Of a stretch of 58,686 nt of DNA, positions 13,040 through 16,253 are shown in pieces. Origin of the DNA: a virus. The stretch lies in the IMG/VR virus record IMGVR_UViG_3300045988_070061, positions 1 to 58,686 of that record, one strand, 5' to 3'. The notes under the pieces are model-generated. The model worked only from the letters and a program-made list of their open reading frames with translations. It was not told the origin of the DNA and searched no databases. The position numbers and the translations under genes were made by a program. The stretch's first letter is position 1. Each line of letters begins with the position of its first letter.

Positions 13040-13186
13040 ATGTTTGTAATATTCGTTGGCGCATTAGCCGTATTTTTGATAATTGGAATGCTTTTGGCTT
13101 GGGTAGGAAATAAAGTTCTACTTGCAATCCTTAAAGATAATGCAAAAGCAGAAAAAGAAATTGAAGAAAGGAAAAAGGACGAATGA
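13040..13186 (+). CDS. Small membrane-anchored protein (48 aa)
   Basis: One TM helix plus a K/E-rich tail. Its stop overlaps the SPFH gene ATG (ATGA). Confidence 0.4.
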   Translation: MFVIFVGALAVFLIIGMLLAWVGNKVLLAILKDNAKAEKEIEERKKDE

Positions 13187-14043
13187 AGAAAGTCATAGTA
13201 ACAGTTGTTGCGATAGCAGCAGTTATTGGAGCGGTCTTTACTGTAAAATCCTGTAAGTTGATTAAAACCGGGCAAACCGGAATCGTCTACACATACAGAG
13301 ATGGAGTCCAGGATCAGACGCTTTCACCGGGATTAAATTTTGTCGGGCCAATGAAAAAAGTAAAACAGTTCTCGACAAGTAATGAAATTCTGGTAATGTC
13401 AAAAGACAAGAGAGAGGGTAGCAAAAAAAACGAAGCTTTTAAAGTGGCAACTTCTGATGATGCAAGTATTGCAGTAAGTTTTCAGATGTCATACCGTTAC
13501 AACCCAGACACGCTTGTTGATACATACAAGAAGTTCAAGGGGATGGACGGTGACGAGATTGTAGAAAGCCGTGTGAAACCGGTTTTGAAATCAAAAATCT
13601 CAGAAATTACAACGGATTATTCAATGATGGATATCTATTCTGGAAATCGTTCAAAGCTAAACACAGAGCTGACGAAATACCTCAACAAAGAATTTTCTAA
13701 GAAATATGGCATTGAAGTGCTGGATGCATCAATCATTGATGTTCACCCAGACAGCAAGCTTAAGAAAGCGATTGACAATCGTGTGACAGCTTTACAAGAG
13801 AAGCAGCAAGCAGAAGCCGAACAGCAGAAGATTAAGGTACAGACAGAGACTAAAAAGATTAAAGCAGAAGCGGACGCTCAGATTAAGATCACGGAGGCTC
13901 AGGCAGAAGCTGAATCAAACAGAGTTATATCTGAATCGTTATCTCAGAACCTTATTGATTTCACGACAGCTAAGGCTCGATTGAAACATGGATGGATCAC
14001 ATCTCAGGGTGTAAGCACAGTTGTGAAAGACGCCGGAAATTAA
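13183..14043 (+). CDS. SPFH/Band-7 (prohibitin/HflC-like) domain membrane protein
   Basis: N-terminal TM helix, then GIVYTY...LSPGLNFVGP...VATSDDASIAVSFQMSYRY SPFH core, then an A/E/Q-rich coiled coil. Confidence 0.65.
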   Translation: MKKVIVTVVAIAAVIGAVFTVKSCKLIKTGQTGIVYTYRDGVQDQTLSPGLNFVGPMKKVKQFSTSNEILVMSKDKREGSKKNEAFKVATSDDASIAVSFQMSYRYNPDTLVDTYKKFKGMDGDEIVESRVKPVLKSKISEITTDYSMMDIYSGNRSKLNTELTKYLNKEFSKKYGIEVLDASIIDVHPDSKLKKAIDNRVTALQEKQQAEAEQQKIKVQTETKKIKAEADAQIKITEAQAEAESNRVISESLSQNLIDFTTAKARLKHGWITSQGVSTVVKDAGN

Positions 14044-14123
14044 GAATGTGTCAGTAAAGACGATAAAATCTAGTGCAACGCATGGCACGAAAAATATTAT
14101 TGCTAACCGTCAGAGGGCGGTTT

Positions 14124-14230
14124 CGGATAGTGACCGAGAGGAAAGGTTGTGGCAAAACTCAGCAACAAGGGATGGTAGCTCGCTGAAATGCGAGGGACTG
14201 AGTTCGCGGGTTCGAATCCCGCCTATCCGA
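14124..14230 (+). ncRNA. Oversized tRNA-like RNA (about 107 nt)
   Basis: Perfect 7-bp acceptor CGGATAG/CTATCCG, class-II-like D arm ACCGAGAGGAAAGGT and T arm GCGGG-TTCGAAT-CCCGC. The central 58 nt lack any 5-bp/7-nt anticodon arm. Instead there is a 6-bp helix ACTCAG/CTGAGT enclosing the hairpin CTCGC-TGAAAT-GCGAG. Confidence 0.45.
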
Positions 14231-14378
14231 TGTGGTGAAACTCAACTCAGTATCTTTGCGGAGAACTGGCAGTGACAGGCTGTAGCCGAACGTGAGCGCA
14301 GTAGTGGGTATACACATGAAAAATCACGGAACCTGTTTTATGGGAGATGACAGTTCAGCAAAAACGCACCTCCGGCAT

Positions 14379-14459
14379 TGGTGGATATGCAAGTGGACAA
14401 AGCAAGCTGACTGTAAATCAGTTCCTTCGGGTTCGTGAGTTCGTATCTCACTCCACCAA
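14379..14459 (+). tRNA. tRNA-Tyr(GTA), class II
   Basis: Hand fold: acceptor TGGTGGA/TCCACCA, anticodon arm GCTGA-CTGTAAA-TCAGT, 12-nt variable arm, T arm GTGAG-TTCGTAT-CTCAC. Confidence 0.85.
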
Positions 14460-14544
14460 TTCTCCGAGCGTAGCATTGGAGAACTCCTTCCTTGAGTAGA
14501 TACATACGCTTCTTGATATATGGCGGTATATTGAGAAGCACTCA

Positions 14545-14627
14545 GCCGTATTGACAGAATGGTAATGTAGCCGGTTGCTAGCCGGTCAGTCGGAAACGAC
14601 TTGGAGGTTCGAATCCTTCATACGGCG
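14545..14627 (+). tRNA. tRNA-Ser(GCT), class II
   Basis: Acceptor GCCGTAT/ATACGGC, anticodon arm GCCGG-TTGCTAG-CCGGT, variable hairpin GTCG-GAAA-CGAC, T arm GGAGG-TTCGAAT-CCTTC. Confidence 0.85.
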
Positions 14628-14632
14628 GTTAT

Positions 14633-14781
14633 GCTATCATAGCTCAATTGGTAGAGCAGTTACAGATATTGAGGTGGTAAAGCGGTGCAACCACACACCA
14701 GTTTGGTTAAAAGAGATCCGGGGAATGCGCCACCCGGCAATATCGTGCAACAGGTTCCCGGTTCGATTCCGGGCGGTAGCT
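14633..14781 (+). ncRNA. Oversized tRNA-like RNA (about 149 nt) with an ~83-nt structured insertion in the anticodon arm
   Basis: Acceptor GCTATCA/CGGTAGC (6 of 7 pairs), canonical D arm GCTC-AATTGGTA-GAGC and T arm CCCGG-TTCGATT-CCGGG. The anticodon stem GTTAC/GCAAC is extended by a 7-bp helix GATATTG/CAATATC that leads to three hairpins. Confidence 0.45.
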
Positions 14782-15561
14782 TTAGAAAACATGATTAACT
14801 CAGTGCAGATGGATTTTTCAGTCTTGCTGAGATGCAATGGTAATGAGATAGGTTTGGTTCGGGATACTGGATCGGCTGATTCTTTTTGGCAGAAGTGATT
14901 CTGTTGGAGAAGATGAACATCATCAACAATGCCTTGCAGTGTATCATCATAGAGAAGTCAATAGCAGAATCCTTGTGGTCGGCGAATAATAGACGTCTGC
15001 AGTGCAGAAATAATCCAGTGATGTGAGTGGTGTGAGAGACTACGGACTAACTGGAAATTCTCAATAAGCTGATTTGCCTTGAATCTGAGAAATCGGAGTA
15101 TAACACAAGAGGTTCGTTAAAGTAGCGGTATGGCAAGTTCTTGAATAAGATATTGGAAATCAAAATATGATTGATGTGTCCAAAAGAAAAATCTGAAAGA
15201 ACCGTGAAATTTATGGGTATCAATCCCATGCGTGCTTAGACAGTGGTAGGAAGCCAAGAGTCGCTATCGAAAGCTCAGACCTATCATCACAGTGGCAGAA
15301 TATGACTTTTACTGTGATGAATAAGAGGAAACTCTAATCATGTTTTTCTTATTCTTATCATTAAAAGCCGGAAATTTGCAACGTCTTCCGGTAAATGAAG
15401 TGTTTTAGTTGCGGTATCACTTCAAAAAAGTATGTAGCAATAAAATATTGTAGTATAGCACTCAATGTTATTAAATATTGTTTTTTCAACAAAAAGAACC
15501 GTAACAGAGGTGGCAATATGGGAACACCAATACTCACCGTATAACTATTGCCATCTGCTAA
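14782..15561 (+). ncRNA. 780-nt ORF-free segment flanked by tRNAs: candidate large structured ncRNA (ROOL/GOLLD class), unverified
   Basis: No credible ORF on either strand in an otherwise gene-dense genome. Several strong local helices, for example the 10-bp TCATCACAGT/ACTGTGATGA (15284-15320), CCGGAA/TTCCGG (15368-15390) and GGCAATA/TATTGCC (15512-15552). The strand is assumed from the neighbouring tRNAs. Confidence 0.3.
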
Positions 15562-15633
15562 CGGAACGTAGCTCAGTGGTAGAGCAGTGGTCTTTTAAGC
15601 CATGTGTCGGAGGTTCGATACCTCCCGTTCCGA
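15562..15633 (+). tRNA. tRNA-Lys(TTT)
   Basis: Acceptor CGGAACG/CGTTCCG, D arm GCTC-AGTGGTA-GAGC, anticodon loop CTTTTAA, T arm GGAGG-TTCGATA-CCTCC. Confidence 0.85.
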
Positions 15634-15638
15634 TTTAA

Positions 15639-15710
15639 TGACATATAGCTCAATGGCAGAGCATCCGGCCGTTAACCGGAGGGTTGCCGGTTCAAGTCCG
15701 GCTATGTCAG
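15639..15710 (+). tRNA. tRNA-Asn(GTT)
   Basis: Acceptor TGACATA/TATGTCA, anticodon arm TCCGG-CCGTTAA-CCGGA (unusual C at position 33), T arm GCCGG-TTCAAGT-CCGGC, followed by T7. Confidence 0.75.
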
Positions 15711-15737
15711 TTTTTTTATTGAAAGGAGAAATGAACA

Positions 15738-16253
15738 ATGACATTTAAAGAAGCATTTGAAGCAATGAAACATGGAGCAAAAGTAAAACTTCCGGGATGG
15801 AACGGTTACTGGTGTTGGGATGACGAAAAACAGACGATTATGATTCATTGTAGACCTAAAGATTCTGATGCAGGACAGGGAGAAGTCCTTGATATCCGTG
15901 AAACGCAGAGAGTGGAATATACTTTCATGCACACACAGAGAGATGATTGGATGATTGCTGATGAAGAGAATTGCGGTGTTCTCGGTGGTCAGTCAACATT
16001 TGGATTTGGAGATGCTGTCCGTTATCTAAAAAGAGGACTTAAGGTGGCTCGTAAAGGTTGGAATGGCAAGAAGCAGTACATTCAGCTTGCTACTGGTATT
16101 TCTTACAAGACAGCGGACGGAGAAATTGTAAACTGTGAACATGATGCTATTGGAAATATGGCGATTGCATTTGTTGGAACATCGGGAGTACAGATGGGAT
16201 GGCTCGCAAGTCAGGCAGATATGCTTGCTGATGATTGGGTGTTTGCAGAGTAG
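15738..16253 (+). CDS. Tandem DUF2829 (Tad2-like) protein, candidate anti-Thoeris / signal-nucleotide sponge
   Basis: Two repeats of the DUF2829 pattern: FKEAFEAMKHGAKVKLPGWNG...DDWMIAD and FGDAVRYLKRGLKVARKGWNGK...WLASQADMLADDWVF. Confidence 0.6.
   Translation: MTFKEAFEAMKHGAKVKLPGWNGYWCWDDEKQTIMIHCRPKDSDAGQGEVLDIRETQRVEYTFMHTQRDDWMIADEENCGVLGGQSTFGFGDAVRYLKRGLKVARKGWNGKKQYIQLATGISYKTADGEIVNCEHDAIGNMAIAFVGTSGVQMGWLASQADMLADDWVFAE

What the first reader, a model, noticed from the sequence alone, without database searches (positions are those of the whole stretch)
14782..15561. 780-nt ORF-free segment embedded in a phage tRNA array: candidate large structured RNA (ROOL/GOLLD class)
Seen in the sequence:
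- The 1.7 kb from 14044 to 15737 has no credible ORF on either strand, in a genome that is otherwise tightly packed.
- The 780-nt core is bounded by tRNA-like or tRNA genes on both sides.
- It contains several strong helices: the 10-bp TCATCACAGT/ACTGTGATGA at 15284-15320, CCGGAA/TTCCGG at 15368-15390, ATGGG/CCCAT at 15213-15229 and GGCAATA/TATTGCC at 15512-15552.

Established: the very large ornate RNAs GOLLD and ROOL occur mostly in Firmicute prophages, typically next to or interleaved with tRNA genes.

Inference: this is either such an RNA or a new one of similar kind. I cannot score a covariance model by eye.
Basis: partly seen in the sequence, partly recalled or inferred. Interest (0 to 1): 0.7.

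Follow-up and report, generated by a model that had tools for sequence, protein, structure and literature searches.

The report
ROOL cage RNA plus pseudoknot tail
The gene-free stretch is a clear copy of ROOL, a large phage RNA already known to self-assemble into a hollow cage, followed by a second, smaller folded RNA that matches no catalogued family; both lie between tRNA genes of a gut Lachnospiraceae phage.

Summary
Window 14775-15355 (+) matches the Rfam ROOL model end to end (351 bits against a threshold of 99; E 2e-80). On 95 homologous phage loci the family fold is supported by compensatory changes. ROOL is a known class: a homo-oligomeric RNA nanocage of unknown function, typical of phage tRNA arrays. 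This copy is therefore a new member, not a new kind.

The 780-nt segment is not one family. Its last ~180 nt (15382-15561) form a separate element. It has two covarying hairpins and two invariant boxes (UUUUAGYUGCGG and AAAGAACCGUARCAG) that pair as a pseudoknot. No Rfam family matches it. It follows ROOL in 74 of 119 related loci, and in about 13 loci it occurs without ROOL. A tRNA or tRNA-like gene nearly always follows it (88 of 93 instances).

Just upstream of ROOL, the "tRNA-like" boundary is a tRNA-Arg body whose anticodon loop is replaced by a complete skipping-rope RNA.

No ORF in the segment is conserved. The host is Lachnospiraceae (Dorea).

Likely mechanism (inferred): the array is transcribed as one precursor, tRNA-processing enzymes release a ROOL-plus-tail RNA, and ROOL assembles into a cage.

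The parts
14633..14781 (+). tRNA-shaped scaffold derived from tRNA-Arg(ACG). Its 7-nt anticodon loop is replaced by a complete skipping-rope RNA (14664-14745). It abuts the ROOL 5' end.
   Evidence: The Rfam tRNA model matches full length (36.8 bits, GA 29) with an 87-nt insert. Skipping-rope (RF02924) scores 63.7 bits (GA 36.7). The 3' half is 100% identical to the tRNA-Arg(ACG) of L082. The anticodon stem GUUGC/GCAAC is intact in L058.
14775..15355 (+). ROOL RNA (RF03087), full length. The block conserved across about 120 phage loci runs from 14786/7 to 15344/5, which is the outer helix P1.
   Evidence: cmscan gives 351.2 bits, E 1.8e-80, model positions 1-574 of 574.
15131..15199 (+). ROOL variable A/U-rich linker, closed by GCGGU (15125-29) pairing with ACCGU (15201-05). 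In solved ROOL cages the equivalent linker is disordered and faces the cage interior.
   Evidence: This region is hypervariable in sequence and length (alignment A1 columns ~385-470). The closing helix is 83% paired overall, with five of its six pairs at 98-100% (helix 21). The interior location is taken from PMC12286853.
15367..15392 (+). Extra hairpin GCCGGAA/UUCCGGU with loop AUUUGCAACGUC, lying between ROOL and the tail. It is found only in the closest relatives.
   Evidence: It appears in the MFE fold. L094 has CCAGGT/ACCTGG with loop ATTGCAACGC, so the stem is compensated. With only two stem variants the support is weak.
15382..15561 (+). Two-box pseudoknot 'tail' element. H1 is 15397-15402/15418-15423. 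Box 1 is UUUUAGUUGCGG, with pseudoknot strand 15408-15414. A variable A/U-rich middle follows. Box 2 is AAAGAACCGUAACAG, with pseudoknot strand 15499-15505. H3 is 15508-15518/15546-15556. GCUAA is 15557-15561.
   Evidence: My own covariance model R1 scores it 103 bits, E 2e-19. Covariation on 60 distinct sequences: all 12 pairs of H1 and H3 show double changes, and the pseudoknot is 99.8% paired. No Rfam family matches.
15562..15633 (+). tRNA-Lys(UUU). Its 5' end is the predicted RNase P site that would set the 3' end of the ROOL+tail RNA.
   Evidence: ARAGORN and Rfam tRNA at 69.3 bits. Relatives keep the same tRNA body but carry a different anticodon arm (Ile-UAU).
15639..15710 (+). tRNA-Asn(GUU), the last unit of the array. 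The Tad2-like gene starts at 15738.
14071..14122 (+). Array-head element (module A). It is a conserved 52-nt block ending in the hairpin AACCGUC/GGCGGUU, and it always lies directly 5' of the first tRNA or tRNA-like unit. It is probably a promoter and/or 5' leader.
   Evidence: It is found in 63 loci. Sequence upstream of ~14070 is not conserved. No convincing sigma-70 match was found.
14123..14627 (+). Upstream part of the same RNA island: tRNA-like tL1 (14123-14232), conserved module B (14235-14374), tRNA-Tyr (14378-14460) and tRNA-Ser (14545-14627).

Best explanation
The segment holds two non-coding RNA modules of a phage tRNA array, on the + strand.

Module 1 (14775-15355) is a genuine ROOL RNA. 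Module 2 (about 15382-15561) is a separate, conserved H-type pseudoknot element that frequently trails ROOL.

Shown here:
- ROOL family membership.
- Covariation support for the ROOL fold.
- Covariation support for the tail fold.
- Tight bracketing of ROOL by tRNA-shaped units in related loci.

Inferred mechanism:
- The whole 1.7-kb island (module A to tRNA-Asn) is transcribed as one precursor.
- RNase Z-type cleavage at the 3' end of the tRNA-shaped scaffold (14781) and RNase P cleavage at the 5' end of tRNA-Lys (15562) release a ~780-nt RNA made of ROOL plus tail.
- The ROOL core folds and self-assembles into a homo-oligomeric cage, as solved for other ROOLs (an octamer or a hexamer). Its variable linker (15131-15199) would face the interior.

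The biological role of ROOL is unknown in the literature. The tail forms a compact pseudoknot whose invariant nucleotides lie in and around the pseudoknot core. My best guess for its role is a protein- or RNA-recognition module, or an end-protecting module that travels with ROOL or with the following tRNA.
For: ROOL identity:
- Full-length Rfam match: 351.2 bits, GA 99.1, E 1.8e-80.
- The homology block in about 120 phage loci starts and ends exactly at the outer helix (14786/7-15344/5).
- The Rfam structure projected on 95 sequences gives 63 of 153 pairs with double changes, against 42.5 +/- 2.6 in shuffles and 19-27 in slid controls. Many helices are 99-100% paired.
- A hypervariable linker sits at the expected place.
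- The context is a phage with tRNAs.

Processing model:
- In 71 of 119 loci a called tRNA ends within 12 nt of the ROOL 5' end. Most of the rest have an uncalled tRNA-like unit abutting ROOL.
- Downstream, 37 of 119 loci have a tRNA within 40 nt, and 74 of 119 have the tail followed by a tRNA.

Tail element:
- Invariant boxes are flanked by at least 10 different H1 stem sequences and at least 10 different H3 stem sequences.
- 95.5% of cells are paired, against 74.1% in shuffles and 22-58% in slid controls.
- All 6 pairs of H1 and all 6 pairs of H3 show double changes.
- The pseudoknot is 99.8% paired, with C:G in 42 sequences, U:A in 17 and one exception.
- The MFE fold of the window copy uses the box1:box2 helix.
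- There is exactly one copy per locus.

Cage assembly and the interior linker are taken from PMC12286853 and PMC12990946.
Against: - There are no expression or end-mapping data for this phage, so co-transcription and RNase P/Z processing are inferred from gene order only.
- No convincing sigma-70 promoter or intrinsic terminator was found.
- Cage formation and stoichiometry were not tested for this sequence. This subfamily lacks one small hairpin of the Rfam model (positions ~455-463).
- The projected structure is poorly paired in some helices (1, 11, 12, 23, 26, 28). At least part of this is register shift from my projection.
- The tail pseudoknot rests on one covarying position, which could reflect few evolutionary events.
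- The fold of the tail is only modestly more stable than shuffles (z = -2.4).
- The tail also occurs without ROOL in about 13 loci. This argues against an obligatory physical or functional link to ROOL.
Confidence: 0.85

Rival explanations
1. The tail is not a separate element. It is a lineage-specific 3' domain of ROOL, so the 780 nt form one functional RNA, and the tail decorates or regulates the cage.
For: The tail lies directly 3' of a full ROOL in 72 of 93 instances, with no tRNA or other obvious processing site between them. The tail shares the 10-mer AAAGAACCGU and the 7-mer GCGGUAU with the two strands of ROOL's linker-closing helix.
Against: About 13 loci keep an intact tail with no ROOL by Rfam, either between two ordinary tRNAs or after a 30-nt ROOL remnant. 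37 of 119 ROOL loci have no tail. The ROOL-tail similarity is not significant as a local alignment: 357 of 1000 shuffles score as well. The literature describes ROOL as ending at P1 (PMC12286853, PMC12990946).
Confidence: 0.25
2. The 15356-15561 stretch is only a 5' leader or processing signal of the downstream tRNA. For example, H3 could protect an end against exonucleases, or the structure could aid RNase P. It would have no function of its own.
For: A tRNA or tRNA-like gene lies within ~110 nt of box 2 in 88 of the 93 instances, usually straight after GCUAA. This holds whatever lies upstream. H3 sits right at the predicted RNase P-generated 3' end.
Against: Ordinary tRNA leaders in the same arrays are a few nt long and not conserved. 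Two invariant 12-15-nt boxes that form a pseudoknot are far more than end protection needs. The downstream tRNA identity varies (Ile, Gln, Lys, Asn, Thr, Ala and non-decoding tRNA-like units), so the element is not tied to one tRNA.
Confidence: 0.2
3. The region, or part of it, encodes one or more small proteins.
For: ORFs of 46-60 aa exist on both strands inside 14782-15561.
Against: None keeps its frame across relatives. Within the ROOL-overlapping ORFs, the linker differs between homologues by indels of many different lengths. The substitution pattern is base-pair-compensating rather than codon-like. The ROOL covariance model explains 581 nt at E 1e-80.
Confidence: 0.02
4. The conservation reflects a DNA-level element (a packaging site, replication origin, attachment site or promoter cluster) rather than RNAs.
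For: The island lies between an accessory-gene block and the packaging and head genes. Module A may well be a promoter.
Against: The elements are strand-specific and co-oriented with the tRNAs. G:U-tolerant compensatory changes are seen in many helices. Full-length matches to two RNA families, ROOL and skipping-rope, are present.
Confidence: 0.02

Closest known systems
ROOL RNA (Rfam RF03087; Weinberg et al. 2017, PMC5737381; cryo-EM in Kretsch et al. 2025, PMC12286853)
   Same: The covariance-model match is full length. The multi-junction fold is supported by covariation. A variable A/U-rich linker sits at the expected position. The length is ~580 nt. The context is a phage or prophage inside a tRNA array.
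   Different: Nothing essential differs. This gut Lachnospiraceae-phage subfamily lacks one small hairpin of the model (positions ~455-463). In this window the outer helix is shorter (about 13 bp). In most loci a conserved tail element follows, and I did not find this tail described for ROOL.
GOLLD RNA (RF01998)
   Same: It has the same ecological niche: a large ornate RNA in phage tRNA arrays that also forms a nanocage.
   Different: There is no match to the GOLLD model at any threshold used. Its sequence and fold are unrelated.
skipping-rope RNA (RF02924; Weinberg et al. 2017)
   Same: 14664-14745 matches the full 80-position model well above threshold.
   Different: Published examples are described as free-standing small RNAs followed by intrinsic terminators (PMC5737381). 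Here the motif replaces the anticodon loop of a tRNA-Arg body and has no terminator. A free-standing copy is seen in another phage (L212).
Engineered 'tRNA scaffold' for recombinant RNA expression (Ponchon and Dardel 2007; cited from my own knowledge, not checked here)
   Same: An RNA of interest is inserted in place of the anticodon loop of a tRNA, so that the cell's tRNA-processing enzymes could trim and stabilise it.
   Different: This one is natural, phage-encoded and confined to one lineage (six contigs). Whether it is processed like a tRNA has not been tested.
H-type pseudoknot modules placed directly 5' of a tRNA-like structure (for example the upstream pseudoknot domain of tobamovirus 3' ends; analogy from my own knowledge)
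   Same: A hairpin loop pairs with a downstream strand. A U-rich loop 1 and an A-rich loop 3 flank the pseudoknot. The element sits immediately 5' of a tRNA-shaped unit.
   Different: There is no sequence relationship. The host is bacterial and the phage has a DNA genome. The element is followed by a real tRNA gene. The resemblance is architectural only, and membership is not claimed.

Membership tests
ROOL (RF03087) | Covariance-model score at or above the curated gathering score, over the whole model | tested here: met
   351.2 bits against 99.1. Model positions 1-574 of 574, not truncated, E 1.8e-80.
ROOL (RF03087) | Conserved multi-junction secondary structure supported by compensatory changes | tested here: met
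   The Rfam structure was projected on 95 homologues. 63 of 153 pairs show double changes, against 42.5 +/- 2.6 in shuffles and 19-27 in slid controls. Twelve helices are at least 98% paired. A few helices are poorly paired, and at least part of this comes from register error in my projection.
ROOL (RF03087) | Variable, unconserved linker inside an otherwise conserved RNA | tested here: met
   Window 15131-15199. Alignment A1 columns ~385-470 differ in sequence and in length between homologues.
ROOL (RF03087) | The three pseudoknots or tertiary pairings of the published consensus (one of them is now known to be an intermolecular kissing loop) | not tested
   Infernal models and the structure line printed by cmscan carry no pseudoknots. 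I had no numbered published structure from which to map them.
ROOL (RF03087) | Genomic context: phage or prophage, next to or within tRNA genes | tested here: met
   Portal, capsid, tape-measure and serine-recombinase genes are present. Four tRNAs plus two tRNA-like units lie on the same strand. The same arrangement is seen in about 120 related loci.
ROOL (RF03087) | Self-assembly into a homo-oligomeric cage (hexamer or octamer) | not testable with these tools
   This needs mass photometry or cryo-EM of the transcript. The property is known for the env-120, E. faecalis and L. salivarius ROOLs (PMC12286853, PMC12990946).
GOLLD (RF01998) | Covariance-model match | tested here: not met
   There is no GOLLD match in the whole window at gathering threshold, nor in 13950-15800 at E up to 1.
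skipping-rope (RF02924) | Covariance-model score at or above the gathering score over the whole model | tested here: met
   63.7 bits against 36.7, model positions 1-80 of 80, at 14664-14745.
skipping-rope (RF02924) | Followed by a Rho-independent terminator, as described for the family | tested here: not met
   The motif is followed by the 3' half of a tRNA (variable region, T arm, acceptor strand). No terminator-like site is reported there.
tRNA (RF00005), for the unit at 14633-14781 | Cloverleaf with a 7-nt anticodon loop able to decode | tested here: not met
   The acceptor, D and T arms match (36.8 bits, GA 29). The anticodon loop is replaced by 87 nt, and ARAGORN does not call it. It is tRNA-shaped but is not a decoding tRNA.
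Any Rfam 15 family, for the tail at 15382-15561 | Covariance-model match at a permissive threshold | tested here: not met
   The best matches have E 1.4-9.6 and score 4.6-19.1 bits against gathering scores of 55-108. All are implausible families (plastid UTR, microRNA, lncRNA). One search shows the same.

The most novel reading that the evidence does not exclude
It is an H-type pseudoknot with two invariant boxes and two freely covarying hairpins, embedded in the tRNA arrays of gut Clostridia phages. It would be the habitual 3' companion of ROOL, so that the RNA released by tRNA processing is ROOL plus tail. Because its two boxes repeat the sequences of ROOL's own linker-closing helix (GCGGUAU ... 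AAAGAACCGU), it might dock on, cap or be carried by the ROOL cage. That would give the first handle on what the cage interacts with.
Probability: 0.5. Interest if true: 0.6.

Novelty: new member of a known kind. Interest (0 to 1): 0.4.

Why it matters
ROOL is one of very few natural RNAs known to build a closed cage without protein, and its function is still unknown. Another copy adds little by itself. The comparative picture obtained here gives three concrete leads for people who study ROOL.

1. ROOL is cut out of tRNA arrays with near-nucleotide precision: a tRNA-shaped unit abuts its 5' end in almost every locus examined. This predicts how its ends are made.

2. In about 60% of gut-phage ROOL loci a conserved pseudoknot element follows ROOL before the next tRNA. 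The native RNA may therefore be longer than the constructs used for structure work.

3. The same island carries other unusual RNAs: a skipping-rope motif grafted into a tRNA body, and tRNA-like units with 6-nt loops. It sits next to an anti-Thoeris (Tad2-like) gene. This fits the idea, unproven, that the island serves counter-defence.

Tried and rejected
- **GenBank phage search.** A search with the whole 1.7-kb island (blastn, distant mode) matched only the tRNAs. There is no close cultured relative.
- **Promoter and terminator scan.** Matches were no more frequent than in shuffles, and both 'terminators' lie inside ROOL helices.
- **Coding potential.** Rejected.
- **Supplement of the discovery paper.** It is not held, so the published gene associations of skipping-rope could not be checked.
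- **Tail as a partial duplication of ROOL's linker domain.** Only a 10-mer and a 7-mer are shared, and the local-alignment score is reached by 357 of 1000 shuffles. I keep this as a weak lead, not a finding.
- **Module B (14235-14374) as a structured RNA.** It is 91-96% conserved in 16 loci, but its fold is no more stable than shuffles (z = +1.0) and the RNAalifold consensus is weak (-28 kcal/mol, no compensatory changes checked). It remains unexplained.
- **Module A as a sigma-54 promoter.** TGGCACG and TTGCT are present, but the GG-to-GC distance is 18 nt rather than 12. Rejected by reading the sequence.
- **tRNA-embedded skipping-rope as a general arrangement.** Rejected. It is confined to one lineage of six contigs, and another phage has a free-standing copy.
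- **Box 2 alone as a search pattern.** The two-box patterns were used instead.
- **Pedobacter genome hit to the two-box pattern (L207).** I treated it as chance. It has no tRNA nearby, and it was never searched with model R1.
Full report
**1. What is at the coordinates**

The window is a temperate siphophage genome or prophage. It encodes an SPP1-type portal, an SU10-type major capsid protein, a tape-measure protein with a transglycosylase domain, a large serine recombinase and a DnaB-like helicase. Its nearest bacterial-genome relative is a prophage in an uncultured Dorea sp. MAG, with a portal protein 95% identical. More distant relatives lie in other Lachnospiraceae MAGs.

Between a Band_7/SPFH gene (ending at 14043) and a two-domain Tad2-like anti-Thoeris gene (starting at 15738) lies a 1.7-kb stretch with no credible ORF. 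ARAGORN finds four tRNAs there, all on the + strand: Tyr 14378-14460, Ser 14545-14627, Lys 15562-15633 and Asn 15639-15710.

A scan of the whole window against Rfam 15 at curated thresholds adds two families. ROOL (RF03087) lies at 14775-15355 on the + strand, with 351.2 bits against a gathering score of 99.1, E 1.8e-80, and model positions 1-574 of 574. Skipping-rope (RF02924) lies at 14664-14745, with 63.7 bits against 36.7. GOLLD and all other large-RNA models are silent, even at E up to 1 on the sub-region.

**2.

All are confirmed (details are in the observation check).

- ATGGG/CCCAT is a consensus ROOL hairpin.
- In the Rfam alignment the two strands of the 10-bp TCATCACAGT/ACTGTGATGA helix pair with different partners: 15284-91 with 15231-47, and 15312-19 with 14945-52. 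In most homologues the 3' strand reads ACCATGAT, which no longer matches the 5' strand well.
- The other two helices lie beyond the ROOL 3' end.

**3. ROOL is real and typical**

I used a conserved ROOL core as a DNA pattern and fetched 114 IMG/VR loci. More loci were added later.

BLAST shows that in about 70 of them the similarity to the window (82-87% identity) begins at 14786/7 and ends at 15344/5. These positions are the two strands of the outer helix. Only five close relatives also align in the flanks.

I aligned 95 distinct ROOL sequences (alignment A1) and projected onto them the consensus structure from the cmscan alignment. The results were as follows:
- 77.7% of cells are paired, against 72.6% in shuffles and 32-52% in slid controls.
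- 63 of 153 pairs show changes on both sides, against 42.5 +/- 2.6 in shuffles and 19-27 when slid.
- A dozen helices are 98-100% paired with several pair types each.
- Helices that look poor (1, 11, 12, 23, 26, 28) are at least partly register errors from my projection. For example, sliding by -1 pairs 51.6% of cells.

The long hairpin loop at 15131-15199 is hypervariable in length and sequence (A1 columns ~385-470). This corresponds to the 'linker' that is disordered and faces the interior in the solved ROOL cage (PMC12286853).

No ORF inside the segment is conserved.

**4. What is known about ROOL**

ROOL was described in 2017 as a ~581-nt ornate RNA found in prophages and near tRNAs (PMC5737381). 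In 2025 it was shown by cryo-EM to form RNA-only cages. The env-120 and E. faecalis ROOLs form D4 octamers, and the L. salivarius ROOL forms a hexamer. These assemblies are stable down to ~10 nM (PMC12286853, PMC12990946).

No function is established. Ideas in those papers include encapsulation of tRNAs or other cargo. The ROOL part of the finding is therefore a new member of a known family.

**5. How ROOL sits in its array**

In 119 related loci with enough flank, a called tRNA ends within 12 nt of the ROOL 5' end in 71. In most of the remaining 46 the gap ends in a tRNA-shaped unit that ARAGORN does not call. These units have an acceptor stem, a D arm and a GGTTCGA T loop, but an odd or expanded anticodon arm.

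Downstream, 37 loci have a tRNA within 40 nt, and 74 have the tail element followed by a tRNA.

This near-universal bracketing is the basis for my inference that RNase Z and RNase P define the ends of the RNA. That step is inferred, not shown. The simple promoter and terminator scan gave nothing above background.

A conserved 52-nt block (14071-14122) always lies immediately 5' of the first unit of such arrays. Sequence upstream of it is not conserved. It is my candidate for the promoter or 5' leader.

**6. The last ~200 nt are a second element**

The 'spacers' between ROOL and the next tRNA differ greatly in sequence and length (118-220 nt), but they share a common plan:
- Hairpin H1 has a variable stem and the loop UUUUAG[C/U]UGCGG[A/U][G/A]U.
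- An A/U-rich variable middle follows, often with a small hairpin.
- Then comes the box AAAGAACCGUA[G/A]CAG.
- Hairpin H3 has a variable stem.
- GCUAA follows, and then the tRNA.

G[C/U]UGCGG in the H1 loop is complementary to CCGUA[G/A]C, which gives an H-type pseudoknot.

On the MAFFT alignment A2 (41 sequences), 95.2% of cells pair, against 78.8% in shuffles.

I built a covariance model, R1, without the pseudoknot. It finds exactly one copy per positive locus, 86 in all, of which 60 are distinct. The window copy lies at 15382-15561, with 103 bits and E 2e-19.

On the model-based alignment A3:
- All six H1 pairs and all six H3 pairs show double changes.
- H3 is 99.7% paired.
- The pseudoknot, which was not part of the model, is 99.8% paired. 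Its one variable pair is C:G in 42 sequences, U:A in 17 and mismatched in 1. The mismatched copy lies in a disrupted locus.
- At least ten different stem sequences occur for each hairpin.

RNAfold on the window copy chooses the box1:box2 helix in its minimum-energy fold (-44.9 kcal/mol, z = -2.4). No Rfam family comes near.

Caveats apply. A3 is fitted to H1 and H3. The sequences are related. The pseudoknot rests on a single covarying position.

**7. Is the tail part of ROOL?**

Of 93 two-box instances among the fetched loci, 72 lie directly after a full ROOL. About 13 have no ROOL.

Twelve such loci were scanned with Rfam. They contain only tRNAs. Their arrangements are of two kinds:
- In L124, L166, L173, L188 and L219 the tail lies between two ordinary tRNAs.
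- In L122, L134, L145 and L194 it follows a 30-nt remnant of the ROOL 3' strand. This looks like ROOL deletion with the tail retained.

Conversely, 37 of 119 ROOL loci have no tail. I therefore treat the tail as a separate module that usually travels with ROOL.

The tail's two boxes share GCGGUAU and AAAGAACCGU with the two strands of ROOL's linker-closing helix. As an alignment this is not significant: 357 of 1000 shuffles score as well. It remains a lead only.

Exact two-box matches in IMG/VR number 76 at box gaps of 30-91 nt, essentially all from gut-type samples. In species-representative genomes the hits are:
- a Dorea MAG;
- a Lachnoclostridium MAG;
- a Ruminococcaceae MAG;
- one Pedobacter hit that I treat as chance.

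**8. The upstream boundary**

The Rfam tRNA model matches 14633-14781 full length, but with 87 nt in place of the anticodon stem-loop. The insert is the complete skipping-rope motif.

Relatives show an intact 5-bp anticodon stem (GUUGC/GCAAC in L058), so only the 7-nt loop has been replaced. The body is the array's tRNA-Arg(ACG): its 3' half is 100% identical to that tRNA in L082.

This chimera occurs only in one lineage (the window, L038, L058, L094, L198 and L213), always directly 5' of ROOL. Another phage has a free-standing skipping-rope. In the Dorea prophage the same position holds an ordinary tRNA-Lys.

It looks like a natural version of the engineered 'tRNA scaffold'. The comparison comes from my own knowledge.

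**9. Verdict**

As such it is a known kind and, on its own, of modest interest.

The added value lies in three points:
- the demonstration that the segment is composite;
- the covariation-supported tail element, which I could not find in Rfam or in the papers read;
- the picture of ROOL as a unit excised from tRNA arrays.

These raise the score somewhat. Function remains unknown throughout.

Noticed in passing
window 14633-14781 (skipping-rope at 14664-14745): A complete skipping-rope RNA replaces the anticodon loop of a tRNA-Arg(ACG) body, like a natural 'tRNA scaffold'. It occurs only in one phage lineage (six contigs), always directly 5' of ROOL. ARAGORN does not call it.
   Followed up: yes
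window 14123-14232: This is a tRNA-like unit (tL1). It has the acceptor UCGGAUAG/CUAUCCGA, the T arm GCGGG-UUCGAAU-CCCGC and a 5-bp arm with a 6-nt loop (UGAAAU), plus about 45 extra nt on the 5' side. ARAGORN does not call it. Rfam gives only weak hits (YrlA at 22.9 bits, and a tmRNA T arm). It is nearly identical in five loci, so there is no covariation to use.
   Followed up: partly
window 14235-14374: Module B is 140 nt of non-coding sequence, 91-96% identical in 16 loci, and always directly 5' of tRNA-Tyr. It has no Rfam match, its fold is no more stable than shuffles (z = +1.0), and no ORF explains it. It remains unexplained.
   Followed up: partly
window 14071-14122: Module A is a conserved 52-nt block found at the head of tRNA arrays in 63 loci. 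It ends in the hairpin AACCGUC/GGCGGUU, and the sequence upstream of it is not conserved. It contains TGGCACG...TTGCT at a spacing that does not fit sigma-54. It is a candidate array promoter or 5' leader.
   Followed up: partly
window 15562-15633 and homologues (for example L038, L208, L009): The tRNA after the tail keeps its acceptor, D and T arms but swaps the whole anticodon arm between relatives. It is Lys-UUU in the window, L094 and L180, and Ile-UAU in L038, L208 and many others. Related arrays carry at the same position tRNA-like genes with 6-nt GCAAGA or GCGAGA loops, which ARAGORN reports as 'tRNA-???'.
   Followed up: partly
window 15738-16253: The gene immediately after the RNA island encodes a protein with two Tad2-like (anti-Thoeris, PF11195) domains. 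A Band_7/SPFH protein is encoded immediately before the island (13183-14043). The RNA island therefore sits in what looks like an accessory or counter-defence block, upstream of the packaging genes.
   Followed up: no
loci such as L014, L042, L057 and L092, about 145 nt upstream of ROOL: In many related loci the unit abutting ROOL is an uncalled tRNA-like gene with a 4-bp anticodon-type stem and a ~17-nt loop (UUCUACCCCUACCCAAG). It is preceded by a terminator-like hairpin (UCUCCG.../CGGAGA followed by A and U runs).
   Followed up: no
L122, L134, L145, L194 (IMG/VR): These loci keep only the last ~30 nt of ROOL (93.5% identical to window 15315-15345), followed by an intact tail and a tRNA-Gln. 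This looks like deletion of ROOL with retention of the tail.
   Followed up: partly
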